Below, piece by piece: positions 6,808 through 62,349 of a DNA stretch of 64,000 bases. A program made the translations under genes and the position numbers. Below the pieces are notes generated by a model. That model worked only from the letters and a program-made list of their open reading frames with translations, did not search any database and was not told the origin of the DNA. The stretch spans positions 29,788-93,787 of the forward strand of contig CAVXNL010000019.1 of the NCBI GenBank assembly GCA_963763045.1, in the 5' to 3' direction. The stretch comes from an uncultured Planctomycetaceae bacterium (lineage in GTDB: Bacteria; Planctomycetota; Planctomycetia; Gemmatales; Gemmataceae). The first letter of the stretch is position 1. Each line of letters opens with the position of its first letter.

Positions 6808-7110
6808 GATGTTCCTCCCCGCTTGTCTACCGGCGAACCGGCTGCGTCCACGGCCGGGTTTGACACTCGCAGGTGAAGGTTCATTATGTCCGAGGGGAGG
6901 AAAAAGAGCAAAGGGGATTGGCGAGGGACCGGTCCAGTGCATGGTTAGCCCGACGCGCCAGCGAGGGTTGCTGCGGAAAACCCTCGCTGGCGCGTCGGGC
7001 TAACTCCGCGATGCCGTCGTGTGGCCGGGACTGAGGGACTCAGCCCCGGCCACCCCGAAGCCGTACACTACTTTTACGACCATCAATAAACACTACAAGG
7101 AGGTCCCGCC

Positions 7111-9465: not shown

Positions 9466-11107
9466 CTACTTCTTCGCCGTCTTGATCTGCTCGCGCAGGT
9501 AGTCCAGGGCCGCGTCGAGCTGCTTGTCCTTGAATTCCTTGGCCGTCTCCTTCGGCGGCTTGCCGTGGCGGATGATCTCGGCTTCGTGCTGGGCCTCGTC
9601 CAGGTCGTCGCGTTCCTTCGGCGTGAGCTTCACGACCTTGTCGGGCGTGACGCCCCATTCGTCCTCGTCCTTGCCGGTGGTGCTGGACTTGTTCAGGTTC
9701 TTGCCGCTCGGCCGCCAGAACGACGCCGTCGTCAGCTTGATCTCACCGGCGACGCCGGACGCCACTCTGAAGCGTCGAATGTTCTGCACGCTGCCCTTGC
9801 CGTAGCTGCGCTCGCCGACGATGAAGGCCCGCTTGTGGTCCTGCAGGGCCGCCGAGACGATCTCGCTGCCGCTGGCGCTCATGCCGTTGACCATGCAGAC
9901 CATCGGGAAGTCGAGCAGGCTGCCTTCGCGGAAGCCGCTGAATGTCGTCTCCCGGCCGACGCGCGGCCGGATCGACACGATCAGGCCGTCGTCGATGAAC
10001 AGGTCGGAAATCTTCACGGCGGAGTCGAGCAGGCCGCCCGGGTTGAAGCGCAGGTCGAGGACGAAGCCCTTGATGCCCTGCTTGGTCAGCTCCTCCATGA
10101 CGCCTTCATGTCGCGGGCAGCTGTTGCGCTGGAACGACGTCAGGCGGATGTAGCCGATCTTGTTCTTCTGGTCGATCATGTAGTCCCACTCGTCGTCCGC
10201 CTTGCGCTTGAAGCCGAGGACCGACTCGATCTCGATGCGAGCGCGGGTGATCTCGACCGTGATCGGCTTGCCGTCGCGCTCGACGGTCAGCTTCACCTTG
10301 GTGCCGGCCTTGCCCAGGATCTTCTTGACCGCGTCGATGAGGGCAAGCCCTTGGTGTCGATGACCTCGGGCGGATTGAGCGGATTGCCGTTGCTGTCCAC
10401 CTCGCGGATGATCGTGGTGATGATGTCGCCGGCTTCGAGGCCCGCCTTGTAGGCGGGGCTGCCCTTGATCGGCGTCACGACCAGCAGCTGGTCGCTGACG
10501 TTGTCCTTGCGGATCTGGATGCCGATGCCGGTGAAGAAGCCCTGCGTCTCCTGCTTGAAGCGTTCGAGCTGTTCCGGGATCGATGTAGGTCGTGTACGGA
10601 TCGAGGTTGCGCAGCATCGTGCTGCAGCGTGAAGTCGATGTCCTTGTGCTTGTCGAGGTCCTCGCGCTTGCCGAGCAGCTGGCGGACCTCCGCCAGCAGC
10701 ACCGTCAACTTCTCGTCGTCCAGGTCCTTGGCGTTTTTCAGCTTGGCTTCGATCTCCGTCGGCACCGGCTCGTCGATGCGGCGATACAGGCCGCTTGACG
10801 GCCCAGACGACCATCTCCGGCCGGTCACCTTCTTGATGTGCTTTTCCTTGATGAGCTCGACGACCTCCATGATCTTGTTGGCATACTTGGTCGGCCTCGA
10901 TCGCACTCAGCTTGGTCTCGTCGAGGATGGCATCGCGGTGCGTCTTTCAGGCCGTCGAGCGTGATCTTGCCGTCCACGAAGGCCTGGTATTCCTTGCGCA
11001 GCTCGCGGCGGCTCTCCAGTTTGGGCATACGATCGAGAAGAGTTCGGCCTTCCTCGGCGAGGGCGGCCGGGACCTTCCCGTCGATGGCCCATTTTGGCCA
11101 GGGTGCT
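9466..11107 (-). CDS. C-terminal processing (tail-specific) peptidase, S41 family with PDZ domain; several frameshifts; no own start codon or signal peptide, possibly fused to the upstream caspase-like ORF
   Basis: Pieces across overlapping minus-strand frames are Ctp-like: YANKIMEVVELIKEKHIKKVTG, FFTGIGIQIRKDNVSDQLLVVTPIKGSPAYKAGLEAGDIITTI (PDZ), GFVLDLRFNPGGLLDSAVKISDLF, and MVCMVNGMSASGSEIVSAALQDHKRAFIVGERSYGKGSVQ (catalytic Ser/Lys region). Confidence 0.85.
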
Positions 11108-30256: not shown

Positions 30257-33200
30257 ATGCACCGCGAAATAAGCCACAGCGACCCGAACCACGACCAGGA
30301 CAGCCAACTGTCGCTCTACCTGCTGACAGCGCTTCTCGGCCTGCTGCTCGCCGCCGACCTGTGGCCGATGTTCGCCCGCTGGTTCAGCCCCTGGGGTCTG
30401 AAACTTCCCTCGTACAGTAATGAAGTGTACGGCAATCGGCTCGCCCTGTTCGCGGCTGTCCTCGGCGGCGCTCGCGCCTCTATGGTTCACTCGACGCTCT
30501 CTTCGCCGGCCGAGTGGGAGCCGACCTGGCACTGGCACTAGCGTGTGTCGCCGCCATCCTCCTCCGGGAGCAGCTCGTCGCCGCCGAGATCGTCTTCATC
30601 GGGATGCTCGGCGAATGCCTCGAAAGCGTCACGTTTGAACGCACTCAGCGGGCATTGCGGCGCTGGTCGAAATCTTCCCGCGCCGCTGCTGGCGGCTGCG
30701 CGATGGGCAAGAAGAGCGTGTGCTGACCACCGAATTGCAGGTTGGCGACAAGGTCGTGGTCAAGCCGGGCGGCCGCGTTCCGGTGGATGGCAGCGTGTTG
30801 GACGGCCGGTCGGCGGTGGACGTCAGCGCCCTGACCGGTGAGAGCCTACCGGTGGACAAGGGGCCGGGCGACGAGGTGCTGGCCGGCTCGCTCAACCAAT
30901 TCGGGGCACTCACCATCGAGGCGAAACGCGTTGCCGAGCAGACCGTCGCCGGCCGTGTGCTCGCACTGACGGCAAAGGCGCTCAAGGACAAGGCGCCGCT
31001 GGAACGCACCGCCGACCGGCTGGCCCGCTACTTCCTACCAGCTGTCCTCGGCCTCGCAGCGCTGACGTTCCTCGCCGGCATGATGATGTACGGCGGCAAC
31101 TGGTTTCGGCCGGCCAATTCGCAGAAACTGACGCTCGGCGAAGCGGCCCGGCACAGCGCCTATCCCGCGCTCTCGGTCCTGGTCGTCGCCTGTCCGTGCG
31201 CCTTGATCCTGGCGACGCCGGCCGCGGTCATCGCCGCGCTGGGACGCCTGGCGGGCACCGGTATTCTTATCAAGGGCGGCTCGGCCCTGGAGCGGCTCTC
31301 GTCGGTGAATGCCTTCGCCTTCGACAAGACCGGCACCCTCACCGAAGGCCGGCTCGAAATCGGCGACTTGGCTCCCCTTCCCGGCGTCGAGGCCGACGAC
31401 GTGCTGCGCGCCGCCGCGACCGCCGAGCAGCGCAGCGAGCATCTCCTGGCCCGGCTCGTGCTGCAAGAGGCGGCGCGGCGTAATCTGCACCTGGAAGAGG
31501 TCGCGGAGTTCAAGGCGCACCCCGGCGCCGGTGTCGAAGTAAAGACGCCATTGGGGATCGTCATTGTCGGAAATAGGCGCCTGCTGGAGGAGCAGGGCAT
31601 CACGCTCCCGGCTGAGGTCGCAGCGCTGCTGGAGCGCTTCGACGCTACTGGCCAGACGGCGCTGCTGGTGGTACGGGATGGAATCGTCCTCGGCGCGATC
31701 GGCGTGCGCGATCACCTGCGGGTGGAGGCCGCCGAGGTCCTGGCACAACTGCGCGGCCTCGGTATCCAACGTATCGCCCTGCTGACGGGCGATCGGCCGG
31801 CTGCCGCGGCAGGGGTGGCCGCCGCACTCGGTACTTCTTCTCCACTCCCCGCGCTCGGAGCGCCGCCGGAACAGGCCATCACGCAGGCACCGGCCGACGG
31901 GGGCGGGTCGCTATTAACCGAAGTGCGCGCCGAGTTACTGCCGCAGCAGAAGGCGGAGTTCGTCGCCGACTGGCAGCGCCAGGGACTGCGCGTGGCCATG
32001 GTTGGCGACGGCATCAACGATGCCCCAGCCCTTGCTCGGGCCGATGTCGGTCTCGCGCTGGCTGCGGCCGGTACCGACGTGGCTGCCGAGGCGGGTGACA
32101 TCGTCTTCATGAAGGACCCGCTGCAATCGCTGCCGCTCCTGCTCCGCCTGTCGCGCGAAACGGTCCGCATCATCCGCCAGAACATCATCGTCTTCGCCTT
32201 CGGCGTCAACATCGTCGGCGTGGTGCTGACCGCCTGGCTGTGGCCGATCTTCGCGCCGCCGGACTGGTACGAACAGTCGCCGGTGGTCGCCGTGATCTAT
32301 CACCAGCTCGGTTCGCTGGCGGTGCTGCTCAACGCCATGCGACTGTTGTGGTTCGAGCGGGCCGTCACCAACCCGACCTACGTCCGCTGGCGCGAGCGCC
32401 TGGACCATGTGAACGACTGGTTGGAACGCATCAGCGTCGATGACGCGGCTCACTGGCTGAGCCACCACTGGCGCGACGTGACGACGGTGCTGCTCGGTCT
32501 GGCCTTTGCCTGTTACACCCTGAGCGGCCTCACGCAGGTCAACGCCGACGAGGTGGCGCTCGTGCGCCGTTTCGGCAAACCGTTGCCCGTTAAACTCCGG
32601 TCCGGCCTGCACTGGTGCTGGCCGTGGCCCATCGACGCCGTCACGAAGGTGCAGCCCGACCGCATTCAGACCATCGAGATCGGTTTCCGCACGGTCGGTA
32701 AGGAGCAGGCACCGACCGCACGCGTCTGGTCCAGCACCCACAGCGGCGACGGCATCCGCCGCCTTCCCGACGAGGCCGTGATGATTACCGGCGACGGCCA
32801 GCTGATCGAGCTGCAAGGCTCGATCCGGTTCCACATCGCCGACCCGCACGTCTTCCTGTTCGAGGTCGAGGACGCGCCGTCGCTGCTGCGCGGCGCCGCC
32901 GAGGCAGTGCTGCGTGAGAAGGCGGCGGCGCGGACCTTCGACCGGCTGTTGACCGTGGACCGCGAATCGTTCCAGCAGGAAGTGTTGGAGCGACTGCGAG
33001 AACGCTGTACGGATTACGGATTGCACGGTCTCGGCGTTCACCTCGACGGCGTGTCGCTGCACGACCTGCACCCGCCGCAGGATGTCGTCGCCTCGTACCA
33101 TAGCGTGACGAAGGCGATGGAGAAGCGCGACGAGGCGGTCAACATGGCCAGGGAGGAGGCCGTGCGAAAAGAGAACGCCGAGTTGGGGAAGATGCGCAGG

Positions 33201-33607
33201 ACATTCGCCTCGCCACCGCTGAGCATGATGGCCGGCTGCGTCTCGTCCGCGCTCAGCGCGATGCCCTGCTCGCGCGCCTGAACGCACGCACGGGCCCATC
33301 GGCGGTAGGTGTGGCGATGCTTGGCGGCAGCGTCTTCTTCCGCGCCGGCCAGGAGGAGGTCGCCGGCATGACGGGGCGAGCCAATTTCCGCCTCTATTGG
33401 GAGGCCGTGGTGGACACGCTGAAGGACCGCCAAAAGATCCTGCTCGACGCCGACAAAATGCCGGAGCTGAGCAGTTTATGGCTGATGCGGCTGCTGCCGT
33501 TCGATTCGCTGCGCATGCCGTTCTCGACACGGCCGCCGGTGCTTCCGCCGGAAGCTGCCGTGAGACGAAAAGGGAGGCTCATTCCATGCGTAAGCTCTTC
33601 TGGCTGA
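30257..33607 (+). CDS. P1B-type heavy-metal-translocating ATPase (CPC motif, no N-terminal HMA domain) fused in frame to an HflK-like SPFH/band-7 domain; frameshifts near 30530, 30670 and 33195
   Basis: TM N-terminus (ORF 30257-30541), the actuator TGESLPVDK, CPCALILATP, DKTGTLTEG, MVGDGINDAPALARADVGLAL and the final TM ...LAVLLNAMRLL. The same uninterrupted 853-aa ORF then runs, with no stop, into a TM (VTTVLLGLAFACYTLSGL) and an SPFH domain (VNADEVALVRRFGKP...HWCWPWPIDAV...GVHLDGVSLHDLHPPQDVVASYHSV). The HflK C-terminus (RLYWEAVVDTLKDRQKILLDADKMPELSSLWLMRLLPFD) ends at 33607. Confidence 0.7.
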
Positions 33608-34552
33608 CCCTGCTCCTCGTCGGCGGAACGCTGCTGGCGTCGTCGTGCCTGTACTCGGTAGATCGCATCGACTTCGTCTATCTGACGCAGTTCGGCCGGC
33701 ACGTCGCCACGTTCGATGGGACGCGCGACGCCGATGCCGGGCTGCACGTCAAGTGGCCGTGGCCCATTCAGTCGGTGCAGCGCCTCGACCGGCGGCTGCA
33801 ATACTTCGACCTGCCCGGCGCCGAGTTGATGACCCGCGACCGCGATCGCAACACCATCGACAAGACGCTGACCATCGACGCCTACGTCTGCTGGCGCATC
33901 GCCGACGGCGAGGGCGTGGATCAGTTCGTCCGCACCGTCGGCACGGCAGAGAGTGCGCGGGCCATCCTTACGCAGCGGCTCGGCAGCGAGCTCGGCGCGC
34001 TGATCGGCGCCCGCGAGATGAATGACCTGGTCAGCACCGACCGGCTCGGCGGGAAGGTAGATGCGCGAGCGCGAACAAGCTCCGCGAGGAGCTGCTGAGC
34101 CGCGTGAAGCAGGTCCGGGAAGAGGCTGGTATTGAGGTGGTGGACGTGCGGCTGCGGCGCATCAATCATCCCGATTCGGTGCGCAAGGAGATCTTCGAGC
34201 GCATCCGCAGCGAGCGCGCGAAGATGGCCGCCGAGTACGAAAGCGACGGCAGGCGACAGGCCGCGGACATCCTGAGCAAGAGCGAGCAGCGCGATCGGAG
34301 AACCTCCGGACGCGGGCCAAGGCAGAGGCCGTGCGGCTGCGCGGCGACGCCGATGCGCGAGCCGACCGGATCCGCGGCGAAGCGCAGAAGCAGGATCCCG
34401 ACTTCTACGCCTTCCTCAAGAAGCTCGAGGCCTACAAGAGCATCTTCGGCGACAACAAGACCTTGTTGCTGCTCTCCACGCATCGAGAGATGTTCGACCT
34501 GTTCAACAATCCGCCGGGAATGAAGCCGGCGCCAAAACCGGGAGAGAAGTGA
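33586..34552 (+). CDS. hflC: HflC-like SPFH-domain membrane protease modulator; frameshifts near 34060 and 34320
   Basis: MRKLFWLTLLLVGGTLLASS (TM), HVKWPWPIQSVQRLDRRLQYFD, TIDAYVCWRI, then after shifts EIFERIRSERAKMAAEYESDG and RLRGDADARADRIRGEAQKQDPDFYAFLKKLEAYKSIFGDNKTLLLLS. The start overlaps the hflK-like stop. Confidence 0.75.
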
Positions 34553-51090: not shown

Positions 51091-52444
51091 TGCGCACCGC
51101 CCTGAAGAAGGAGCCGCTGCCGCACGAACACGTCGATTCCGCTCCGCTCGGCTGGAAGATCGATCCCTACAAGGGCAAGCCGCAATACGACGCGCTGAAG
51201 CAATACATCGCCGAGAACAAGAACGCTCTCGCGCTCATCAAGAAGCTGGAAGTGTCCAGCCTCCGCGGCATGGGCGGCGCCGGCTTCCCGACGTTCCGCA
51301 AGTGGTCGGCGGTGCGCGGCGCCCCGGCGACGAAAAGTACGTCGTCTGCAACGCCGACGAGAGCGAGCCGGGCACGTTCAAGGATCGCGAGCTGCTGCGG
51401 CGGACGCCGTGGCTGGTCATCGAGGGCATGATCCTGGCCGGCCTCGTCGTCGGGGCCAAGCAGGGCTGGATCTACATCCGCCACGAGTATCCCGACGAGG
51501 AACGAGGCCGTCGAGAAGGCGCTGCACGAGGCCCGCGAGATGGGCGTCCTGCGGCGACAACGTCCTCGGCTCCGGGCATGCCGTTCCAGCTCGAAATCTT
51601 CATCAGTCCCGGCGGCTATGTCCAGGGCGAAGAAAGCGCGCTGCTGGAGGCGATGGAGGATCGCCGCGGCGAGCCGCGCAACAAGCCGCCGTTTCCGGTG
51701 TTCAACGGCCTGTACAACAAGCCGACCGTCATCAACAACGTCGAGACGCTGAGCTGGGTGCCGGGCATCGTGCTGAACGGCGGCGAATGGTATCGCGAAC
51801 CAGGGCATCAACGGCGAACCCGGCATGCGCTTCTGTCTCGGTCAGCGGCGACGTGGTCAAGCCGGGCGTCTACGAGGTGCCGTTCGGCCTGAAGGTGCGG
51901 GAGCTGATCTTCGAACCGGAATACTGCGGCGGCATGCGGCCGGGACGCAGGTTCAAGGCGATCGCGCCGTCCGGGCCGTCCGGCGGCTTCTTGCCGGCGA
52001 TGATCAAGCTGACCAATCTGCCGCCGAAGTTCGTGCAGGACCGCCTCAATAAGCGAAGACGTTGCCTTCGCCTTTCTCGACTTGCCGCTCGGCCTGAACA
52101 CGTTCGACGAGTTCGGCGGCATGCTCGGAGCCGCTCTCATCGTCTACGACGACACGCCGCGACATCGTCGAGAACGCGCTCAATTGCGTCGAGTTCTACC
52201 GCAACGAGTCGTGCGGCAAGTGCGTCCCCTGCCGGACCGGCTCGCAGAAGCTGGTCGAGCTGATCGGCCAGATGATGGACCAGCAAGTTCCCGCGCGACC
52301 CAGCTGCCGCTGGTCGGCGAGCTGGCCGACACGATGTGTATCGCGTCGATCTGCGGCCTGGGCCAGGTGGCATCGAACCCGATCGCCTCGGTGCTGAAGC
52401 ACTTCCCCGAGGAGCTGGATAAGTATATGCGCAACGGCGCGTGA
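51089..52444 (+). CDS. NuoF/HoxF-like NAD(H)- and FMN-binding [4Fe-4S] flavoprotein subunit; at least 4 frameshifts
   Basis: SSLRGMGGAGFPTFRKW, YVVCNADESEPGTFKDRELL, GAKQGWIYIRHEYP, QGEESALLEAMEDRRGEPRNKPPFP, TVINNVETLSWVP, VSVSGDVVKPGVYEVPFG, NESCGKCVPCRTG. The ATG overlaps the NuoE-like stop (TGATG). Confidence 0.8.
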
Positions 52445-52447
52445 ACT

Positions 52448-52511
52448 CGTTTAGCCGCGAGCTGTTTGCGAGCGCTGAGCCTCGGCGCTCGCAAAAGCTC
52501 GCGGCTAAACG
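52448..52511. repeat. perfect 64-nt palindromic stem-loop in the 92-nt gap between the nuoF-like stop and the next gene's ATG
   Basis: CGTTTAGCCGCGAGCTGTTTGCGAGCGC...GCGCTCGCAAAAGCTCGCGGCTAAACG, nested inverted repeats. Confidence 0.8.
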
Positions 52512-52536
52512 AAAGACCTCATTGTCGAGACTTCTC

Positions 52537-54912
52537 ATGAGTCCTGCTGACAATAACGAACCGCTGGTCATGGAAGGCCATTATGTCGAGCTGGAAAAGA
52601 CCGTCGTCGATCTGCTCAAGGAGCCGCCGGTCAAGGTCACCATCGACGGCAAATCCATCGAGATCCCGCGCACCACGCTCGTCGAGAACCCGGTGACCGG
52701 CAAGGTCGAGCCGAAGCCGACGACCATCTACGACGCCGCCCTCAAGCTCGACATCAAGATCCCGATCCTGTGCCACCGCGAGCACATGACCCCCGTCGCC
52801 GCCTGCCGTTTCTGCACCGTCGATGCCGGCGGCCGGGTGCTGACGGCCGCCTGTCACCGGCAGGTCGAGCCGAACATGGTCGTCCACACCGGCAACGCCG
52901 ACACGCCGCAGGGCAAGCGCGTCCGGAACACGATCAAGGTGCTGACCGAGCTGCTGCTCGCCGATCACGAAGTGCCGCGCGAGGCACATAAGGAGTACGG
53001 CGACAACGAGCTGCGCACCATCGCCAAGAACCTCGGCCTCAATCCGTACTCCTCGCGCTTCCCCAAGTCCGGGCGCGACCGCGGTCAGACGAGTCGTCGC
53101 TCGTCATCGCCGTCGATCACAACGCCTGCATCCTGTGCGACCGCTGCATCCGCGGCTGCAACGAAGTGCGCAACAACCAGGTCCTGGGCCGGATGGGCAA
53201 GGGGTACAAGGCGCACATCGCCTTCGACCTCAACGACCCGATGGGCCAATCGAGCTGCGTCTCGTGCGGCGAGTGCATGATCTCCTGCCCGACCGGGGCA
53301 CTGACGAATCGGAAGTTCGTCGGCGCCGATCCGTGGGCCGCCGTGCGCAGACAAGGTTCAGTCGGTCAATCCCGCGGACCTCTACAAGAACCCGCTGTTC
53401 GAGGGCGTATCGCGCCAGTTCCTCGAGTTCAACAAGGGCTCCGTGGTCCGGCGCACGTTCAAGACCGGCGACATCATCTGCCGCGAAGGCACGGCCGGCT
53501 CGACTGCGTTCCTCATCGAAAAGGGCAAGGTGGAGATCCGCATCACGTCGCCGATCAAGCACGCCAAGGCGCAGAAGATCGGCGTCCGCGGCATCTTCCG
53601 CAAGTTTGCCAGTGCCCTCGTCGGCCGCGGCGAGGACTCGCGCGATGAGGAGAGCCGGTCGTCGTTCATCCACATCGACGGCCCCGTGTCGCTGAAGTAC
53701 TCCGATCCCGTCGCCGAGCTGGACGAAGACGACCTGATCTTCGGCGAAATGACGTGCATGAACAACTACCCGCGGTCGGCAACGGTCGTGGCCAAGACCG
53801 ATGTGACCGTGCTGGAAGTGCTGCGCAACGTCCTCTACATCTTGCAGCGCAACAAGAAGTCGAAGGCGAAGCTCGACGCCGTCTACCGCCGGCGCTCGAT
53901 CGACAACCATCTCCGTAGCGTGCCGATCTTCGCCGACCTGCAACAGGATGAGACGCAGTTCAAGCGCTTCATCGACTTCTTCCGCGAGCGTGTCCAGCTG
54001 GTGCGGCTGGCACCGGGTGAGACGATCTTCCGCCAGGGCGACAGGGCCGACGCCTTCTTCATGGTGCGCGTCGGCTTCGTGAAGGTGTCGCAGAATCAGT
54101 CAGGCGGCGAGCAGGTGCTGGCTTACATCGGCCCCGGCGGCTATTTCGGCGAGATCGGTCTGATGGCCGACGACGCCGACGTAAGCCGGCTGGCCCCCGC
54201 CGGCGTCCGCACCGCAACCTGCACGGCCCTGGACCACGTGGACATTGTGCGCATGAAGGCGTCGGACTTCCGCCAGATCCTGACGGACTTCCCAGCCGTC
54301 GCCGACAAGATCAAGTCGCGGGCGATCGAGATCCTGAAGAAAAACGAGGCGACCCGCGAGCGCGTGCAGAAGGTGCCGCTCGGCGAGTTCGTTCGCCAGG
54401 GCTTGCAGGAGGCGACGTATCTGCTGGTGCTCGACCTGGAGAAATGCACGCGCTGCGACGAATGCACCAAGGCCTGTGCCGACACCCACGATGGCGTGAC
54501 ACGGCTGATCCGCGAGGGTTTGCGGTTCGACAACTACCTGGTGGCGTCGTCGTGCCGGTCGTGTCTCGATCCGTACTGCATGGTCGGCTGCCCGGTCGGC
54601 TCGATCCGCCGCCGCCAGTCGCGCGAGATCATCATCGAGGACTGGTGCATCGGCTGCGGCAAGTGCGCCGAGAATTGCCCTTACGGCAACATCAACATGC
54701 ACCCGTTCCCGACGAACCAGCTGATGGACGATCCGAACAAGCCAGGCTTCAAAGTGCCGGTGGTGCAGCAAAAGGCGACGCTGTGCGACCAGTGCAGCGA
54801 GCTGGACGGCCAGCCGAGCTGCGTCTACGCCTGCCCGCACGACGCGGCGCATCGCATGTCGGGCAAGCAGCTGATCGGGATCGTGGAGAAGCGGGCGGCG
54901 GCGATGAAGTGA
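52537..54912 (+). CDS. multidomain redox/sensor protein: NuoG/HydA-N-terminal-like ferredoxin module ([2Fe-2S] + His-ligated and 2x [4Fe-4S]) + two cyclic-nucleotide-binding (CAP) domains + C-terminal poly-ferredoxin (4x CxxCxxCxxxCP); frameshifts near 53090 and 53350
   Basis: VKVTIDGKSIEIP...ILCHREHMTPVAACRFCTV...TIKVLTELLLADH, then after a shift NACILCDRCIRGCNEVRNNQVLGRMGKGYKAHIAF...SCVSCGECMISCPTGAL. CAP domain 1 follows (LYKNPLFEGVSRQFLEFNKGSVVRRTFKTGDIICREGTAGSTAFLIEKGKVEI), then CAP domain 2 (VRLAPGETIFRQGDRADAFFMVRVGFVKVS...YIGPGGYFGEIGL). The C-terminus has CTRCDECTKAC, CRSCLDPYCMVGCP, CIGCGKCAENCP, CDQCSELDGQPSCVYACP. Confidence 0.7.
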
Positions 54913-55585: not shown

Positions 55586-57728
55586 TCAGACTTGGGGGGC
55601 CGGGTAGTGTACGTGCAGCCAGTCGGTCACTTCGGCGTCTCCTTGCGCGAGTCGCTCAAGCAGGCCGCCAGGAGGGACACCCGTGGGTACGAAACAGAAT
55701 ACGGTCAGGAGGCAGAGAATTAGCATACGGGCTGTTTCTGGGCCACCCTCCACGAAGACTTGCGTGGACAGCTGTACCGCGAACTGACCGAGATGCGCGA
55801 ACTGAGCCGCAGTCAGAATCCCGTTCGGGAATTGTCCCTCCAGCATCACGGTCATCTCAATCAGGTTTTGTCGCCCCGCAGGCGTGAACCCTGTGGGGCG
55901 AGGTGCATCGTGTCGCAAGATCCGATGATTACACGCAACGGCCCACTCGGCCAGTTGCTCGGCAGTCAGCGTCATCGCTGGACCGCGCCAGCCTGTGCCT
56001 CCTTCGGCCTTTTCACGATGCCGTTCGAGAATCTGCCGTACTTCTTCGGCCACTGCCCTGCGATAGACCTCATCGGTGTCGTAGCGGCGTAACCGACGTA
56101 ACACGGCGTCACGCTTCCCTTCCGGCGGCGGTTGCTGGCGATTTTCGCCGTCCGAACCGTGCAGGACTTCGTAGAGCGGGCCGTGCCGCAGGTGATTCCA
56201 GAACAGCTCTTCCACATCGATTCGGTTGGCATTCGCCAAATTCTCCGGCAGCTGGCTGCACAGTAATCTGCCGATGTGAAAGCCGAGTTGCCGGTAGGAT
56301 TCGACCATGTCCGGATCGTAAAACTGATTGACCGTCGGATCGTGCGGGAACGGTTGCCGGTGATGGAAATGACGCAGCAGATCATTCTCTTCGTCCTTAG
56401 TCAGCGACGGCTTGAGGTAGATGATGTAACCCTCCTTGCAGGTGCGCGGTTGAACTCCGTCCGGCATGTAGTCATCGGGATAAAGCACGCGGCCGATGAA
56501 GAAATGGTAGCGGCAAGTGTCATCTTCCTTGACACTCAACGGCTGGAGGTCGATCGGCCGTTTGTCGTGGAGGTCGAGGACCTCGACACCGTGGAAGAGG
56601 CGTACCCGGCGGCACACCTTCAGAAAATCCTCGAACGAGTGTCTGGGATCTTCGCCGGCATCGGAAACGACGATGAGCTTGCAGCGGCGTTGCAACAGTG
56701 CCCAGAGGCCGAGGTTTTCGCTGTGGCCGCCGTCCGTGACCAGGCACCAGGCGCGATCCTCGGCATCGAAGAGCAGGTGATCGGCCAGAAGCATCGGCAA
56801 CGTGGGCCAGGGTAGGATCTGTACGTGGCGCCAAATCCACGACATCCACGAATGTTTGCCGGCGCTGGGATTGAGCAACCACTGGCCGAGCCGCATATTG
56901 AACACCGCGAGCAGCACACCCCATGCACCCTTGACCTGTGATGGGCTGACGGCGGCGCCTGAGATGGCGGTAACCTCGGCGAGATCATCGCGTCCATGAA
57001 ACCACCTTCTCAGCCACTTCCATCGACTCAAGTACGGCGCCGTCGGCACACACTGGGTGACGGAGGAACCGCAGTAGAGCGGCGAAAACAGGAACGGCCA
57101 GGAACGATCCTCGCTGCGGGAGTCGCCCAAGAGGTTGAGCGTACCGGAGAAGAGGGGATACGGTTCGCTCCCCCGCCTCGGCGCGTCCAGTTCGGAGAGG
57201 CGAATGAATCGGCCCTGCCCGGTTCTGGGTTCGACGTACTGTTCTGCGCAGCCGGTCGCGATAGAAGCCGTGCATGGCCGTCCAGTTTACGTTGACCAAG
57301 CCGATGAGGAGGCACACCCAGAACGAGCCACAGAGGATACGCAGACGAACGTACTGATCTTCCTCGGCCAATGTCGTCCGCTGGCCGATACCTCCGAGCC
57401 ATTGCAACGTTTCCCCCGGCGTGAGACGATCGTCAATCCACTCGGGGAGTTTTTCGGTCACGGCCTGGTCGATCGGCTTACTGGCGCGGACGATGTTCTG
57501 CCGATTGGCGGCAACGAGACCGAGATGGCGCGGCCTACCATATTCCGGAAGGAGGGAAAGTTCGAGTGCAAAGCGGTCCAAGTCGCCCGGGAGGGCTTCG
57601 TTTGAAACCAGGCTTAGCCACAGGGCATTAGCGGAATTGTCCGGCCAGCATTTTAATAGCAATCGATTCACTCCCTTCATGGCGGCTGGGGTTTCTTCCC
57701 AACGCGGTAGGAGCGTGAAGGCGGCGCC
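55586..57728 (-). CDS. 3' portion of a large membrane patatin-like phospholipase gene (contains the DGG catalytic-Asp motif), separated from its 5' portion by an IS insertion; internal frameshift near 57000-57130
   Basis: LVTDGGHSENLGLWALLQRRCKLIVVSDAGEDP matches the patatin D-G-G block. The reading frame is open on the minus strand from the IS boundary (…GAAFTLLPRWEETPAAMKGVNR…) with no stop. Confidence 0.55.
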
Positions 57729-59398
57729 GGTACTACCCTCAAGTTTACCCGGAACATTCTACCATCGCGTGACAGGAGGTCTGTGTCTCTACGTGATTGT
57801 ATTTTTTTCCACCGCAGCGCCGTGACGCCCCCTGGGCATAAGCTGGCGAACCTTTGCGGCTGTGCCCGCAGCTTTCCGAGCCTCTGTACTCTGGTAGTTT
57901 TTGCAATCACGTACCAGACCACCGCACCGCTCTTGACCACACGACCATCCTGAAAGTGACGGCAGGGTTGCACTGGTCACGAGGGCACGGTCATGACGAC
58001 AGACGCACGGTTCGGCGAACATAACTTCGGCGCGGCCTTTCTGGGACACAAACGGCGCACCGATTGTCTGGTGCGCATCGCACACCAGATTTACCGTCAT
58101 CCCGGCGGGACCTTGCCCGCCAAGCTGCACGAGCCCAAGGATTACAAGGCGATGGACCGGCTCATGAACCGCCCCGAGGTGACGCACGCCGCCGTGCTGG
58201 AGCCGCACCGCCAGCGGACCCTGCAACAGATGCGTCTGGCTCCCGGCGTGGTCCTGGTGTTGCATGACACCACCGAACTCGACTACTCGGGGCTGCGTTC
58301 GATCCCCGACCTGGGTCCGATCGGCGGCGGCCTCAACCGTGGCTACTTGTGCCACAACAGCCTGGCTTTCGACCCGCAGCGACACGAAGTCCTCGGTCTG
58401 GCCAACCAAATCCTGCATCGGCGCCGCCACGTCGGTCGCCACGAAAAAGTGCGGGCCAAACGCGAACGCCGCGATCGCGAAAGCCGGTTGTGGATCGACG
58501 GCGTCGCCGCGGTCGGCCCCGCTCCGGACGGCTGCACCTGGGTGCATGTCGCGGATCGCGGCGCCGACACCTTCGAGTTTCTCGCCCGCTCCTGGGGGCC
58601 ACACGAAGGGTTCGTGATGCGTTCCAAGGTCAACCGCGTGATCCGCCACGGCCACCATGACCCGCAGGGTCCCAAAGACTATCTGCACACCTATGCACGC
58701 ACGCTGCCGCTGCAGGGACACCGGGAAATCGTCGTGTCGGCACGGCCGGGCCAGCCCGAACGCAAGGCGGTCGTCGCCGTGTCGTTCGCGCCGGTGTTGC
58801 TCAGTCCGCCGCACGTGCGTCGCGGCTTGTATGAGAAGCGGCCGCTGCCGCTGTGGGTCGTGCGCGTGGCCGAAATCAAGCCGCCCAAGGGCGTCGCGCC
58901 GGTGGAGTGGATCCTGCTGACCGACCGCAAGGTGGGCACGCTGGCGGACGCCTGGGAACGGGTGGATTGGTACGGCGACCGCTGGATCATTGAGGAATTG
59001 CACAAGGCGCAAAAGAGCGGTTGCGCCATCGAAGATCTGCAGTTCACTACGTCGGCGGCCCTGCAACCGATGATCGCGCTGCTGTCGGTGGTGGCGGTGG
59101 CGTTGCTGAACCTGCGCGAAGCCAGTCGGCGACCGGATGCCAAGGAGCGGCCAGCGACGGAGGTGGTGGATGCACGCTACGTGGCCGTGCTGAGTGCGTG
59201 GCGTTACAAAGAGGTACGGCCGGAGTTGAGCATCCATGACTTCTTCTATGCTTTGGCGCGCCTGGGTGGCCATCAGAACCGCAAACGCGACCATCGCCCC
59301 GGCTGGCTGATCCTGTGGCGCGGCTGGATGGCCTTGCAACACATGGTCGATGGTGCGGAAGCTCTGAAAAGTTGTGGGTAAACTTGAGGGTACTACCC
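57729..59398 (+). mobile_element. IS4-family insertion sequence (~1.67 kb) with 22-bp imperfect terminal inverted repeats
   Basis: IRL GGTACTACCCTCAAGTTTACCC (57729-57750) and IRR GGGTAAACTTGAGGGTACTACC (59376-59397) match 21 of 22. A single intact DDE transposase ORF lies inside, and the IRR overlaps its stop codon. Confidence 0.85.
57993..59381 (+). CDS. IS4-family DDE transposase (462 aa, intact)
   Basis: VLHDTTELDYSG (D1), WVHVADRGADTFEF (D2), YGDRWIIEELHKAQKSGC (E / YREK-like region), typical of the IS4 family. Confidence 0.85.
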   Translation: MTTDARFGEHNFGAAFLGHKRRTDCLVRIAHQIYRHPGGTLPAKLHEPKDYKAMDRLMNRPEVTHAAVLEPHRQRTLQQMRLAPGVVLVLHDTTELDYSGLRSIPDLGPIGGGLNRGYLCHNSLAFDPQRHEVLGLANQILHRRRHVGRHEKVRAKRERRDRESRLWIDGVAAVGPAPDGCTWVHVADRGADTFEFLARSWGPHEGFVMRSKVNRVIRHGHHDPQGPKDYLHTYARTLPLQGHREIVVSARPGQPERKAVVAVSFAPVLLSPPHVRRGLYEKRPLPLWVVRVAEIKPPKGVAPVEWILLTDRKVGTLADAWERVDWYGDRWIIEELHKAQKSGCAIEDLQFTTSAALQPMIALLSVVAVALLNLREASRRPDAKERPATEVVDARYVAVLSAWRYKEVRPELSIHDFFYALARLGGHQNRKRDHRPGWLILWRGWMALQHMVDGAEALKSCG

Positions 59399-61086
59399 CA
59401 CAGCTCCATCAGCTGTTTTTGCGTCGGTTCGACAGAAGCCACCAACGCCGCCGCTGCCCAGACTGATCCCTGGACACCTGGCAAGCCCACCATCCCCGCG
59501 CTGCCTGCAACCCATTCCGGTTGGACCTGAGGCTCTCGCGCCTTGACGAAGCGAACTTCGATGGCAACGAGTTGAGGATCCATCAAGGATTGCTGGGTCG
59601 CGACCGCGTTGCCGAACAGGCGATCCATGACGTTCCCCGCATAGCCACGGGCGCTCAGTTCTTTCTCAACCTCTTTGCGGCTGTAGAGACGCACGGCCTG
59701 CACCTGGGGCGGCCGCTCTCTGGACCAGTTCGTTTTCACCTTGATGAGCTTTCCTTGCGCTGCTCGACCGGAGACATTTTCGCGCGCCAATTTGTACAGA
59801 ACGAAGAGAGGGACCCCGATCAGGACGATGGCGCCGACAAAGTTCAGGGCCTTGCCCCATTGGGCCGAGGAGGCCTGATTCGTCCTGTCGTTGCGTGAGG
59901 GCCGCAGCACCGGCCAGATGCCGAAGACGAGGAGAAGGCCGACAACAATCGCGATCGAGCCGTACACTACGGAGCGCAGCATGCTGCCGATCCAATCGAG
60001 ATCCAGGCTGGCGTTTTGCCGCGATGTGGGATCGTAAATGAGTAGCGCGTCGGGAACGCAATGGCGCAGCGGTCCGATGGAGATGTCGCCGTTGCCCAGG
60101 AGGACAATTACGCTGACCACAAGCGAGACGCCACAGATTGTCCGACTGGAATGGAACCACCGCCGTGGCAATCGTAGTTTCTTCTCGTCGGCTGGCCCTA
60201 CCTTTTTTTCGACGCGGCGCAGCCATCTCCAGGTCGTCAACCAGAATAAAGCCGGCACAAGGCTCGGGAGAAAAGCCCGGAACAGGTCCGACGTCAGAGA
60301 GTGACCCAGGCCGTCTGGCTCGTTCTCGAAAGTGATCCATTCCCGAATCGCCGGTTGGTCGAACAAGCGCCACAGACAAGCGATCAAGGTGCAGAAAAAG
60401 ATCAGGGCAGTACCGACGAGGGCCAGATTGGGCAGCAGGCCGCGCGCATAGTCCAAGACGAAATCCCAGGGACGGGCTAAATAATCTCCGCGGCGAATGA
60501 AGCGACGTACGCGCGGCGGCTGCCGGTCGCCTTCCTGCGGCAGCAGAGGTGCGTTGGGGTCCGTCGGCGACCGGGAGGCCAGGTGAGCCGCCAGGTAACT
60601 GCCGCCCGAGACGGCGGAAAGGTAGTCGAGGTAGCGATAGAGACCGCGGACAAGAAGGGCCTGTACAACACCGAGGTTGAACATCGCCGAGCGAATACCG
60701 CCTCCGGAGAGTGCCAATCCGACCAGATCGCGGCTTACGTCCGCGCCATTCACGCCGGCTCCGAAGGCGGCGATGCGTCGCTGAGCCACCTGCTCACGTT
60801 CCGCTTCGATTACCTCCTCTTCCGAAAGCAGTTCCGGGAAGATGTAGCGATAAAATTTCATCCACACGGCCGCCAGCCATCGCGCGAACTGTTTCACATA
60901 CGTGAATGCCAGGAAAAGGAAAATGAGCCCAATCAGTAAGTAGCAGCAGGAGCCCAACGGCCACCAGACTTGCGCGAACATTACGGTAGCCTCGCGGATT
61001 GGATTTGGCTCTTGGTTGATCGCAAGTGATCTGCGTGAGAAGACGTACCTGCTTGCACATTTCAACGTACCATTCGTCATCCCCAT
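59399..61086 (-). CDS. 5' portion (~562 aa) of the membrane patatin-like phospholipase: N-terminal TM, GGGxRS oxyanion motif and G-x-S-x-G-like nucleophile motif, multiple further TM helices; truncated by the IS
   Basis: LALSGGGIRSAMFNLGVVQALL...YLSAVSGGSYLAAHLAS matches the patatin block. The real sequence ends ...ASVEPTQKQLMELW exactly at the IS right end, and the track ORF then reads through the IS antisense. Confidence 0.6.
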
Positions 61087-61206: not shown

Positions 61207-62349
61207 ATGATGCAGGCGAACGTCGATTCCCGTCTCGCGGACATTCGCTCCAGGGTCGAAGCCGAGGAACGCCTCTCATTCGAGGACGGCGTCTTCCTCT
61301 ACGACCACGCCGACCTGTTCACGCTCGGCGATCTGGCCAATCTCGTTCGTGAACGGAAGAACGGCAACTTCGCCTATTACAACGTGAATACCCACCTGAA
61401 CCCGACCAACGTCTGCGTCTATCGTTGTACCTTCTGCGCTTTTCGGGCCGACCTGAAGAGCGAGAAGGGCTACGTGATGACCGACGAGCAGATCCTCGAA
61501 CGCGCCGCCGAAGCCGATCGTCGCGGCGCGACCGAGCTGCACATCGTCGGCGGACTGCACCATCAGTTGCCGTATGAGTGGTATTTGAACGTCATCCGCA
61601 TCATCCACGTGGCTCATCCGCGACTGCATCTGAAGGCGTACACGGCGGTCGAATGGGACTGGTTCGCCCGGCTGACGGGCCGGCCGACGCGCGCTCTGCT
61701 CGCCGAGTTCCAGGACGCCGGCCTCGGCAGCCTGCCCGGCGGCGGTGCCGAGATCTTCCAGCCCGAGGTGCGCGATAAGATCTGCGAGCACAAGGCCGAC
61801 GCCGCCGAGTGGATTCGCATTCACCGTGAGGCGCACCAGCTCGGCCTGCGCTCCAATGCCACGATGCTCTACGGCCACATCGAGGAGCCGCGGCATCGCA
61901 TCGACCATCTGATTCGGCTGCGCGAACTCCAGGATGAGACGGGCGGCTTCCAGACGTTCATTCCGCTGGCGTTCCATCCGGACAACACGGGACTGGCGCA
62001 CCTCCCCAAGGCGAGCGGCCTGCTCGATCTGAAGACGATGGCGATCAGCCGATTGATGCTCGACAACTTCCCGCACATCAAGGCGTACTGGGTCATGCTC
62101 GGCATCAAGACAGCCCAGCTGGCCCTGAGCTTCGGCGCCGATGATCTCGACGGCACCGTGGTCCACGAAAAGATTTATCACGACGCCGGCAGCGATTCGC
62201 CGCAGGAATTGAGCGTCGCCGATATCCGCCGCATTCTCGAAGAAGCCGGCCGCGTGCCGGTGGAGCGCGATACGCTCTACAACGAGGTCATCCGCGATCA
62301 GGGCGAGAAACGGTGGCAGACGGGGCGACGATTGCAATTGGTGAAGTGA
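61207..62349 (+). CDS. radical SAM menaquinone (futalosine pathway) enzyme, MqnC/MqnE family
   Basis: NVNTHLNPTNVCVYRCTFCAF (CxxxCxxC) with a CofH/MqnC-like body (HIVGGLHHQLPYEWYL, TMLYGHIEEP, GADDLDGTV). Intact 380 aa. Confidence 0.8.
   Translation: MMQANVDSRLADIRSRVEAEERLSFEDGVFLYDHADLFTLGDLANLVRERKNGNFAYYNVNTHLNPTNVCVYRCTFCAFRADLKSEKGYVMTDEQILERAAEADRRGATELHIVGGLHHQLPYEWYLNVIRIIHVAHPRLHLKAYTAVEWDWFARLTGRPTRALLAEFQDAGLGSLPGGGAEIFQPEVRDKICEHKADAAEWIRIHREAHQLGLRSNATMLYGHIEEPRHRIDHLIRLRELQDETGGFQTFIPLAFHPDNTGLAHLPKASGLLDLKTMAISRLMLDNFPHIKAYWVMLGIKTAQLALSFGADDLDGTVVHEKIYHDAGSDSPQELSVADIRRILEEAGRVPVERDTLYNEVIRDQGEKRWQTGRRLQLVK

What the first reader, a model, noticed from the sequence alone, without database searches (positions are those of the whole stretch)
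55586..61086. IS4-family element sits between the two catalytic halves of a large membrane patatin-like phospholipase gene
The upstream patatin ORF carries the GGGxRS and AVSGGS (Ser nucleophile) blocks and ends ...QKQLMELW at the IS right inverted repeat. On the other side of the IS the same strand is open from the left inverted repeat (GAAFTLLPRWEETPAAMKGV...) and later contains the catalytic-Asp block LVTDGGHSENLG.

With the IS (57729-59398) removed, the two parts join in frame. The most economical reading is one ~1250-aa TM-rich patatin-like lipase split by a recent IS insertion, because the transposase and inverted repeats are intact.

The alternative is two paralogous genes with the IS sitting in the promoter of the second.
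Basis: partly seen in the sequence, partly recalled or inferred. Interest (0 to 1): 0.6.

Follow-up and report, generated by a model that had tools for sequence, protein, structure and literature searches.

The report
Lipase gene split by Tn5-like IS
A mobile DNA element of the Tn5 type has jumped into the middle of one large membrane lipase gene and cut it in two, which is an ordinary way for a bacterial gene to be knocked out.

Summary
One minus-strand gene of about 1279 codons, a membrane-embedded cPLA2/patatin-like Ser-Asp lipase, is interrupted by a Tn5-like IS4-family element.

Three details need correcting:
- The IS is 57738-59388 (1651 bp), not 57729-59398. That is the target-site duplication expected of a Tn5-type transposase. 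Five independent copies of the same IS from other samples start and end exactly at 57738 and 59388.
- With the IS and one repeat copy removed, the gene reads ...QKQLMELW-GST-GAAFTLLPRW... in frame.
- The downstream half is not one open frame. One surplus base at 57245-57248 separates ...FYRDRL from AEQYVE...LVTDGGHSENLG. At least four other conserved genes or domains in the window show similar frame breaks, so this one may be an assembly error.

Single-ORF homologues of 960-1181 aa align straight through both lesion sites. This refutes the reading of two paralogous genes. No allele closer than about 47% identity was found anywhere.

The event is routine, so interest is low.

The parts
59398..61086 (-). 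N-terminal part of the lipase gene, codons 1-563. It holds an N-terminal TM helix, the GGGIRS oxyanion block (128-133), the VSGGS nucleophile block (Ser160) and four more hydrophobic segments. It ends ...QKQLMELW. The true start may be Met36 at 60981.
   Evidence: ORF list; translation; Pfam Patatin 29.2 bits, aa 124-179; invariant columns in A1; hydropathy
59389..59397 (.). Target-site duplication, right-hand copy (GGTACTACC on the + strand). In the gene it encodes Gly564-Ser565-Thr566.
   Evidence: Perfect 9/9 direct repeat with 57729-57737. Other copies of the IS carry unrelated bases here.
57738..59388 (+). Tn5-like IS4-family insertion sequence, 1651 bp, inserted antisense to the lipase gene
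   Evidence: Five independent copies (L002-L006) begin and end at exactly these bases. They are 99.5-99.9% identical with no gaps.
57738..57756 (+). Left terminal inverted repeat (CTCAAGTTTACCCGGAACA). The first 13 bases are identical to the right repeat.
   Evidence: End alignment; repeat search; pattern search, 2 hits against 0 expected
59370..59388 (-). Right terminal inverted repeat (CTCAAGTTTACCCACAACT)
57993..59381 (+). Transposase gene, 462 aa, full length. It has the Tn5-type N-terminal DNA-binding domain and a DDE catalytic core with the Y-R-E-K signature.
   Evidence: NCBIfam transpos_IS4_3, 301 bits against a cut-off of 160; Pfam Tnp_DNA_bind; Tn5 transposase in PDB, E=2.7e-36, aa 8-459 against 13-467, with DTT / DR.AD / RW.IEE.HKA.K conserved
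57729..57737 (.). Target-site duplication, left-hand copy (GGTACTACC)
59047..59388 (-). Read-through of the truncated lipase ORF into the IS: 113 IS-derived codons plus the stop codon, antisense to the 3' end of the transposase gene
   Evidence: The ORF 59047-61086 has 679 aa, made up of 563 native, 3 from the duplication and 113 from the IS.
57249..57728 (-). Middle part of the lipase gene, codons 567-726. It covers the variable linker, one TM segment (693-713) and the conserved NWT.MH.FYRDRL block. It is in the same frame as the N-terminal part once the IS is removed.
   Evidence: Three-frame translation; alignment A1
57245..57248 (-). Frameshift site. There is one surplus base inside the palindrome CTGCGCAG (57244-57251). 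Removing one base restores RL[A/R]EQYVE, which matches the family consensus FYRxRLAExYIE.
   Evidence: The codon-usage segmentation puts the frame switch at 57243/57244.
55586..57247 (-). C-terminal part of the lipase gene, codons 727-1279 plus the stop codon. It contains the conserved PY.L..TLNL, F.FS..YCGS, SGAAVSP, N.RLGQW and TDGGHSENLG (Asp898) blocks, RRCKLIVVSDAG and YRQLG. The last ~170 aa have no counterpart in homologues.
   Evidence: ORF 55586-57130 and the open frame upstream of it; A1 invariant columns D898 G899 G900

Best explanation
A single minus-strand gene of about 1279 codons encodes a membrane-embedded lipase of the cPLA2/patatin superfamily. The oxyanion block and the Ser160 nucleophile lie about 740 residues upstream of the catalytic Asp898. 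Five to six transmembrane helices and a variable linker sit between them.

A 1651-bp Tn5-like IS4-family element transposed by cut-and-paste into the codons for that linker, after Trp563. It duplicated 9 bp of target (GGTACTACC) and lies antisense to the gene.

The predicted consequences are inferred, not shown:
- The upstream part can only give a 679-aa product with Ser but no Asp.
- The downstream part has no promoter or conserved start of its own.
- The enzyme is therefore inactivated.

The insertion looks recent. The duplication is perfect, the transposase is intact, and the element is at least 99.5% identical to other copies.

A second lesion is one extra base at 57245-57248. It is either later decay of the dead gene or, more likely here, an indel error of the assembly.
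For: **Shown**
- A perfect 9-bp direct repeat flanks inverted repeats with 13/13 identical terminal bases.
- The IS ends are fixed by five independent copies with unrelated flanks.
- In those copies the left flank of L003 and the right flank of L002 share a different 9-mer, GGCCGCCGC. This suggests a second 9-bp duplication.
- The transposase aligns end to end with Tn5 transposase (E=2.7e-36) with the DDE and YREK residues conserved. NCBIfam assigns IS4 at 301 bits.
- The join across the IS is in frame.
- P0001 (1139 aa) matches at E=1.7e-227, with 86% of the reconstructed protein covered by one local alignment.
- Alignment A1 shows nine full-length homologues running through both lesion sites. 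Ser160, Asp898 and about 100 other columns are invariant.
- 585 of 600 candidate stretches in GTDB genomes encode relatives. In 79 of the 80 best the match runs from query residues ~90-120 to ~1050-1160 in one locus.
- An AlphaFold model of P0001 (pLDDT 76.6, pTM 0.77) is confident for both catalytic parts. Its best PDB matches are human cPLA2 alpha and delta over about 400 columns.
- The insertion point maps to P0001 residues 535-541, inside its low-confidence segment 470-578.

**Evidence that the frameshift may be an artefact**
- The Fe-S/cNMP-binding gene is broken at ~53085 and ~53345.
- A PDZ domain is cut at a frame switch in the S41 peptidase gene.
- A Band_7 domain is split at profile position 114/116 between two overlapping frames.
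- The codon-usage segmentation finds about 48 candidate frame switches in 64 kb.
Against: - No uninterrupted close allele was found. The best homologue is 41-47% identical, so the pre-insertion sequence is reconstructed, not observed.
- Relatives whose MqnE neighbour is 92% identical are not syntenic at this locus.
- The order of the two lesions is unknown. If the frameshift is real and older, the IS landed in a gene that was already dead.
- Loss of function is inferred from the separation of Ser and Asp and was not measured.
- The last ~170 aa and a 10-aa insertion (RWKWLRRWFH) have no counterpart in homologues, so the 3' end of the gene model is uncertain.
Confidence: 0.9

Rival explanations
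1. These are two separate paralogous patatin-like genes, and the IS sits in the intergenic or promoter region of the second.
For: The downstream part has an ATG 48 nt after the IS (57680, MKGVNRLL...) that opens a 231-aa ORF.
Against: - The upstream part has Ser but no Asp block. The downstream part has Asp but no GGGxR or Ser block.
- All nine aligned homologues, and 79 of the 80 best genomic loci, carry both blocks in one gene.
- No homologue ends or begins near the junction.
- The flanks join in frame across a 9-bp duplication.
Confidence: 0.02
2. The gene was already a pseudogene because the frameshift at 57245-57248 is real and came first. The IS then inserted into dead DNA.
For: The frameshift is present in the sequence and lies at a non-homopolymer site. 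The gene has lower third-position GC (0.66-0.71) than its neighbours (0.79-0.90).
Against: - Apart from this one base, 1279 codons remain open and aligned to homologues.
- The window has at least four other frame breaks in conserved genes or domains. A sequencing or assembly indel is therefore at least as likely.
- A frame break in the neighbouring Fe-S gene, near 53345, has the same TG[C]GCAGA context.
Confidence: 0.2
3. The juxtaposition is an artefact or a rearrangement. Either the assembler placed the IS wrongly, or recombination between two IS copies joined unrelated flanks.
For: The IS is multi-copy in the public record. Its 90% protein cluster has 16 members, several on large contigs. 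Short metagenome contigs break at its ends or are chimeric there. The assembly is of visibly low base-level quality.
Against: The identical 9-bp repeats on both sides, the in-frame join, and the colinearity of the two flanks with single homologous genes would all have to be coincidences.
Confidence: 0.03
4. The split is tolerated. Both halves are made, the second from the ATG at 57680, and they assemble in the membrane into an active two-piece enzyme.
For: The insertion lies in a poorly conserved linker that is modelled with low confidence. The frameshift might be an artefact.
Against: - No promoter-like site was found at the IS end facing the downstream half.
- The N-terminal fragment carries 116 extra residues, 3 from the duplication and 113 from the IS.
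- No natural two-gene version of the family was seen.
- If the frameshift is real, the Asp block cannot be translated from that start.
Confidence: 0.04

Closest known systems
IS50 / Tn5 (IS4 family, IS50 group)
   Same: - One transposase of about 460-480 aa with the Tn5-type N-terminal DNA-binding domain and the DDE plus YREK catalytic core. It aligns end to end with Tn5 transposase.
- Short terminal inverted repeats that begin 5'-CT.
- A 9-bp target-site duplication.
- The duplicated 9-mer GGTACTACC matches the four fixed positions (G1, T3, A7, C9) of the published Tn5 target motif A-GNTYWRANC-T, as quoted in PMC12090612.
   Different: - The match to Tn5 transposase is distant (E=2.7e-36, 128 bits), and the inverted-repeat sequence differs.
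- It is a simple IS, not a composite transposon.
- It was found in a planctomycete-like genome and in soil, wood and other metagenomes.
- No inhibitor-protein start was examined.
Cytosolic phospholipase A2 (cPLA2 alpha and delta; PDB 1CJY, 5IZ5) and bacterial patatin-like lipases (ExoU, VipD, PlpD)
   Same: - A Ser-Asp dyad lipase with a GGGxR oxyanion block, a small-x-S-G-G/S nucleophile elbow and a DGG Asp block.
- As in cPLA2, a large insertion separates Ser from Asp.
- The profile hits cPLA2 delta in PDB at E=1.1e-4.
- The model of homologue P0001 matches 1CJY and 5IZ5 over about 400 columns with probability 1.00.
   Different: - The Ser-to-Asp spacing is about 740 aa, against about 320 in cPLA2 alpha and about 200 in ExoU (my own recollection of the literature).
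- The insertion contains five to six predicted TM helices, and there is no C2 domain.
- Only profile positions 1-54 of Pfam Patatin match.
- NCBIfam and PADLOC give no hit.
- No member of this family appears to have been characterised; one targeted literature search found none.
IS-disrupted genes (insertional pseudogenes) in bacterial genomes
   Same: A coding sequence is interrupted by an intact IS with a target-site duplication. The flanks can be rejoined in frame.
   Different: Nothing of substance. This is a typical example.

Membership tests
IS4 family insertion sequence (IS50/Tn5-like group) | DDE transposase of the IS4 type with the Y-(2)-R-(3)-E-(6)-K signature | tested here: met
   NCBIfam transpos_IS4_3 scores 301 bits against a cut-off of 160. 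In the alignment to Tn5 transposase, query HDTTELDY aligns with the Tn5 Asp97 region, ADRGAD with the Asp188 region, and DWYGDRWIIEELHKAQK with Y319/R322/E326/K333. The Tn5 residue numbers are from my own knowledge.
IS4 family insertion sequence (IS50/Tn5-like group) | Tn5-type N-terminal DNA-binding domain | tested here: met
   Pfam Tnp_DNA_bind scores 24.4 bits against a cut-off of 24, aa 9-63. NCBIfam IS4_FS_Nterm scores 26 bits, just under its cut-off of 27. The margin is thin in both.
IS4 family insertion sequence (IS50/Tn5-like group) | Terminal inverted repeats at the ends of the element | tested here: met
   CTCAAGTTTACCC is 13/13 identical, 16/19 over the longer stretch. The ends are identical in five independent copies.
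IS4 family insertion sequence (IS50/Tn5-like group) | Direct target-site duplication of 9 bp, as for Tn5/IS50 | tested here: met
   GGTACTACC lies at 57729-57737 and 59389-59397, 9/9 identical. It is not part of the element in other copies.
IS4 family insertion sequence (IS50/Tn5-like group) | Transposition activity | not testable with these tools
   Only indirect evidence is available. Copies from six sources are 99.5-99.9% identical, and the ORF is intact.
Patatin / cPLA2 superfamily Ser-Asp lipases | Glycine-rich oxyanion block GGGxR | tested here: met
   SGGGIRS at aa 127-133. S127, G128, G129, G130, R132 and S133 are invariant in A1 and in the 76-sequence alignment A2.
Patatin / cPLA2 superfamily Ser-Asp lipases | Nucleophile elbow G-x-S-x-G | tested here: met
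   The sequence is A-V-S160-G-G-S, and S160, G161 and G162 are invariant. It aligns to G-I-S-G-S of cPLA2 delta. The first Gly is replaced by Ala or Thr in this family, so the motif is met in a variant form.
Patatin / cPLA2 superfamily Ser-Asp lipases | Catalytic Asp in a D-G-[GA] block | tested here: met
   T-D898-G-G-H-S-E-N-L-G. D898, G899, G900, N904, L905 and G906 are invariant.
Patatin / cPLA2 superfamily Ser-Asp lipases | Alpha/beta fold of the patatin/cPLA2 type that brings Ser and Asp together | tested here: inconclusive
   The model of homologue P0001 (not of the window protein) finds cPLA2 alpha and delta as best PDB matches: E about 1e-4, probability 1.00, about 400 columns, but TM-scores of only 0.17-0.31. 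The Ser-Asp distance in the model could not be read out.
Patatin / cPLA2 superfamily Ser-Asp lipases | Pfam Patatin (PF01734) gathering score | tested here: met
   29.2 bits against 27.7. Only profile positions 1-54 of 191 match, so it barely passes.
Patatin / cPLA2 superfamily Ser-Asp lipases | Lipid acyl-hydrolase activity | not testable with these tools
   No member of this subfamily was found to have been characterised.

The most novel reading that the evidence does not exclude
The most novel reading that is not excluded has two parts. First, the IS landed in a disordered, poorly conserved linker between the two catalytic halves. If the frameshift is an assembly artefact, the two fragments could still be made and assemble into a working two-piece membrane lipase. 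Second, the interrupted gene belongs to a very widespread, apparently uncharacterised bacterial family of membrane-integral cPLA2-like lipases, with about 740 aa and five to six TM helices between Ser and Asp. The C-terminal catalytic half of that family matched no model in Pfam, NCBIfam or PADLOC.
Probability: 0.05. Interest if true: 0.4.

Novelty: new member of a known kind. Interest (0 to 1): 0.15.

Why it matters
It matters little beyond annotation. The locus should be annotated as one lipase pseudogene interrupted by an IS, not as two or three "hypothetical" or "patatin-like" ORFs. The IS should be annotated as 57738-59388, with a 9-bp duplication.

Two side results may be more useful:
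- The window comes from a sequence with many single-base frame breaks. Any apparent pseudogene or split gene in it needs read-level confirmation.
- The disrupted gene belongs to a large, uncharacterised family of membrane-embedded cPLA2-like lipases found in many bacterial phyla.

Tried and rejected
- **Uninterrupted allele.** I searched with the reconstructed protein against the 5.8-billion-protein collection (best hit 41-47% identity), GTDB genomes and JGI metagenomes. No close relative turned up.
- **Synteny route.** The adjacent MqnE gene has relatives at 92% identity, but their neighbourhoods differ and lack the lipase. The contexts of homologues P0002 and P0006 are also unrelated.
- **Source contig.** The 100%-identical transposase (P0121) and MqnE (P0255) are in the collection, but their contigs could not be retrieved.
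Nothing is repeated there.
- **Anti-phage defence role.** PADLOC gives no hit for either half or for P0001.
- **Outward promoter at the IS end facing the downstream half.** None was found. This is a consensus scan only, and it may not suit this organism.
- **GC3 frame plot to settle the 3' tail of the gene.** It was ambiguous.
- **TGCGCA as a systematic error motif.** It lies within 15 nt of 6 of the 48 candidate frame switches, against about 1 expected. The indel types are mixed and most TGCGCA sites are unaffected, so this stays open.
Full report
**What is in the sequence**

The gene lies on the minus strand. ORF 59047-61086 (679 aa) starts with a hydrophobic N-terminus. It carries SGGGIRS (aa 127-133) and AVSGGS (Ser160). 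Its native sequence ends ...QKQLMELW at base 59398. It then runs into foreign sequence.

Between the two halves lies a 462-aa ORF on the plus strand (57993-59381). It is bounded by inverted repeats that occur nowhere else in the window. The pattern search gives 2 hits against 0 expected from shuffles.

Below the element the minus strand reads GAAFTLLPRWEETPAAMKGV... from 57728. Further down it contains LVTDGGHSENLG.

**The IS and its true ends**

Reading both ends on the plus strand shows GGTACTACC at 57729-57737 and again at 59389-59397. This is a perfect 9/9 direct repeat.

Read as an inverted repeat, the same 9-mer has one mismatch. It is nearly palindromic, which explains the confusion. 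The real inverted repeats are CTCAAGTTTACCC, 13/13 identical and 16/19 over the longer stretch.

This was tested independently. The transposase has relatives of 90% identity or more in public data. Five contigs from other samples (L002-L006) carry copies that begin exactly at CTCAAG... and end exactly at ...CTTGAG. Their flanks are unrelated to those in the window. They align over exactly 1651 bp with 99.5-99.9% identity and no gaps.

The element is therefore 57738-59388. GGTACTACC is duplicated target DNA. The left flank of L003 and the right flank of L002 share another 9-mer, GGCCGCCGC. This looks like a second 9-bp duplication split over two contigs.

**The transposase**

- It is IS4 family by NCBIfam (transpos_IS4_3, 301 bits against a cut-off of 160).
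- It has the Tn5-type DNA-binding domain.
- It aligns end to end with Tn5 transposase structures (E=2.7e-36, aa 8-459 against 13-467). The DDE and YREK positions are conserved.
- A 9-bp duplication is what Tn5/IS50 makes (own knowledge).
- The 9-mer matches the four fixed positions of the published Tn5 target motif A-GNTYWRANC-T, quoted in PMC12090612.

**One gene or two**

With the IS and one copy of the duplication removed, the codon boundaries coincide. The sequence reads ...QKQLMELW-GST-GAAFTLLPRW....

A search with the reconstructed protein returned 296 relatives. The best is P0001 (1139 aa, E=1.7e-227), and one local alignment covers 86% of the query.

In alignment A1, nine homologues of 960-1181 aa run through the insertion point. 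All are single proteins. ...AFTLLPRWEE aligns to ASYILIRRWET, VSYSLLSPWED and so on. None ends or starts near the junction.

A scan of GTDB species representatives found at least 585 loci in many phyla. In 79 of the 80 best, the match runs from about residue 90-120 to 1050-1160 of the query. The Ser block and the Asp block thus belong to one gene throughout the family.

The upstream fragment has no Asp block. The downstream fragment has no oxyanion or Ser block. The alternative of two paralogous genes is rejected. A rearrangement between IS copies is also rejected, because of the matching 9-bp repeats and the colinear flanks.

The downstream half is in two frames.

- From 57728 to 57249 the frame gives ...NVNWTAMHGFYRDRL.
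- From 57247 another frame gives AEQYVEPRTGQGRFIRLSEL...DGGHSENLG... to the stop at 55586-55588.

The conserved block in the family is FYRxRLAExYIE, with fixed spacing. One base too many therefore sits within 57245-57248, inside the palindrome CTGCGCAG. Removing one base gives RLAEQYVE or RLREQYVE. P0002 has RLREAYVE.

A self-trained codon-usage segmentation puts the frame switch at 57243/57244.

**Is that frameshift real?**

The window is full of similar breaks. The same segmentation finds about 48 same-strand frame switches with long overlapping open frames. Four were checked by homology:

- The gene at 52441-54912 is one protein of about 823 aa (Fer2_4, Fer4_Nqo3, cNMP-binding and a 4Fe-4S dicluster). 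It is broken at about 53085.
- The same gene is broken again at about 53345.
- A PDZ domain is cut at the same residue in three Pfam models, at a frame switch in the S41 peptidase gene at 9469-10946.
- A Band_7 domain is split at profile position 114/116 between the overlapping ORFs 33229-34095 and 34026-34520.

These genes otherwise have strong codon bias, so indel errors of the assembly are the economical explanation. The break at 53345 has the same context (TG[C]GCAGA) as the one in the lipase gene. I therefore treat the lipase frameshift as more likely an artefact than a mutation, but this is not settled. The IS insertion does not share this doubt, because an assembler does not create a target-site duplication.

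**What kind of protein was hit**

- Pfam sees only the first 54 positions of the Patatin profile (29.2 bits against a cut-off of 27.7).
- NCBIfam and PADLOC see nothing.
- A profile of A1 hits cPLA2 delta in PDB (E=1.1e-4), and VipD weakly. Both matches cover only the Ser-containing N-terminal block.
- An AlphaFold model of P0001, built from 76 homologues (pLDDT 76.6, pTM 0.77), is confident for residues ~50-430 and ~670-1070. It is poor for 431-660.
- Its best PDB matches are human cPLA2 alpha (1CJY) and delta (5IZ5) over about 400 columns. Probability is 1.00, but TM-scores are low, at 0.17-0.31.
- Hydropathy gives segments at 44-62, 221-239, 317-340, 372-390, 413-431 and 693-713, and perhaps 1232-1250.

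The family is thus a membrane-integral cPLA2/patatin-like Ser-Asp lipase. Its "cap" insertion of about 740 aa contains the TM helices.

The IS site maps to P0001 residues 535-541, inside the low-confidence, poorly conserved segment 470-578.

**Consequences (inferred)**

- The N-terminal product would be 563 native residues, 3 from the duplication and 113 from the IS. It lacks Asp898.
- The C-terminal part lacks its own conserved start. No sigma-70-like promoter faces it from the IS end (a weak test).
- The enzyme is most likely inactive.
- A functional two-piece enzyme is not excluded but is unlikely.

**Context and origin**

Neighbours are MqnE (61207-62349), a DUF6941 protein, a beta-CASP/RMMBL nuclease, multihaem cytochromes and the Fe-S/cNMP protein.

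MqnE relatives with names are from Gemmataceae and Planctomycetales MAGs, at 85% identity. Contexts of related contigs carry DUF1501 and PSCyt2/PSD1 genes. I regard those families as typical of planctomycetes (own knowledge). The window is probably planctomycete.

No close allele of the lipase exists in the collections searched. MqnE neighbourhoods in the nearest relatives are not syntenic.

**Verdict**

This is an ordinary, probably recent insertional inactivation of a lipase gene by a Tn5-like IS. The IS coordinates, the place of the target-site duplication and the continuity of the downstream frame needed correction. Interest is low.

Noticed in passing
whole window; checked at 53085, 53345, ~10340-10410, ~34030-34075: The sequence is rich in single-base frame breaks. 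A codon-usage segmentation gives about 48 same-strand frame switches in 64 kb. Four of them were confirmed by split conserved domains or genes (Fe-S/cNMP gene twice, PDZ of an S41 peptidase, Band_7). This most likely reflects an indel-prone assembly, so other apparent pseudogenes in this window need the same caution.
   Followed up: partly
57244-57251 and 53344-53351; TGCGCA sites across the window: Two verified frame breaks share the context TG[C]GCAGA, and in both a surplus C explains the shift. TGCGCA lies within 15 nt of 6 of the 48 candidate switches, against about 1 expected. This may be a systematic consensus error at a palindromic, perhaps methylated, motif, but the indel types are mixed.
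   Followed up: partly
52441-54912 (+): After repair of two frame breaks, this is one ~823-aa protein. It combines a NuoG-like 2Fe-2S domain (Fer2_4), Fer4_Nqo3, cyclic-nucleotide-binding domains and a C-terminal 4Fe-4S dicluster. This is an unusual redox/cNMP-sensor architecture.
   Followed up: partly
55586-61086 (-) and homologues P0001-P0120, L007-L086: The interrupted gene belongs to a very widespread bacterial family. It occurs in Planctomycetota, Acidobacteriota, Nitrospirota, Pseudomonadota, Bacteroidota and others, with at least 585 loci in GTDB representatives. Members are ~1000-1400-aa membrane-integral cPLA2-like lipases. The Asp-containing half matched nothing in Pfam, NCBIfam or PADLOC. 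No characterised member was found.
   Followed up: partly
55586-56100 (-) and 56840-56870 (-): The last ~170 aa of the reconstructed lipase have no counterpart in any aligned homologue. The same holds for a 10-aa insertion (RWKWLRRWFH) before the DDLAEV block. The codon model scores 55471-55937 as non-coding. The true stop may lie further upstream and have been lost through another indel.
   Followed up: no
55586-61086 (-) compared with neighbours: The lipase gene has clearly lower third-position GC (0.66-0.71) than neighbouring genes (0.79-0.90). This fits either horizontal acquisition or relaxed selection.
   Followed up: no
30639-33278 (+): One open frame combines P-type ATPase domains (E1-E2_ATPase, Hydrolase) with a complete Band_7/SPFH domain at aa 633-841. 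A second Band_7 gene follows and is split by a frame break. The fusion may be real, or a stop codon may have been lost to an indel.
   Followed up: no
L002 1827-1835 and L003 214-222: The right flank of the IS copy in L002 and the left flank of the copy in L003 are the same 9-mer, GGCCGCCGC. The two contigs come from different samples. They look like the two sides of one further insertion with a 9-bp duplication, or like a preferred target.
   Followed up: partly
2208-6999 (-): A run of overlapping minus-strand ORFs in different frames carries PQQ_2/BamB-like beta-propeller repeats. It is probably one large propeller protein gene broken by several frame errors.
   Followed up: partly
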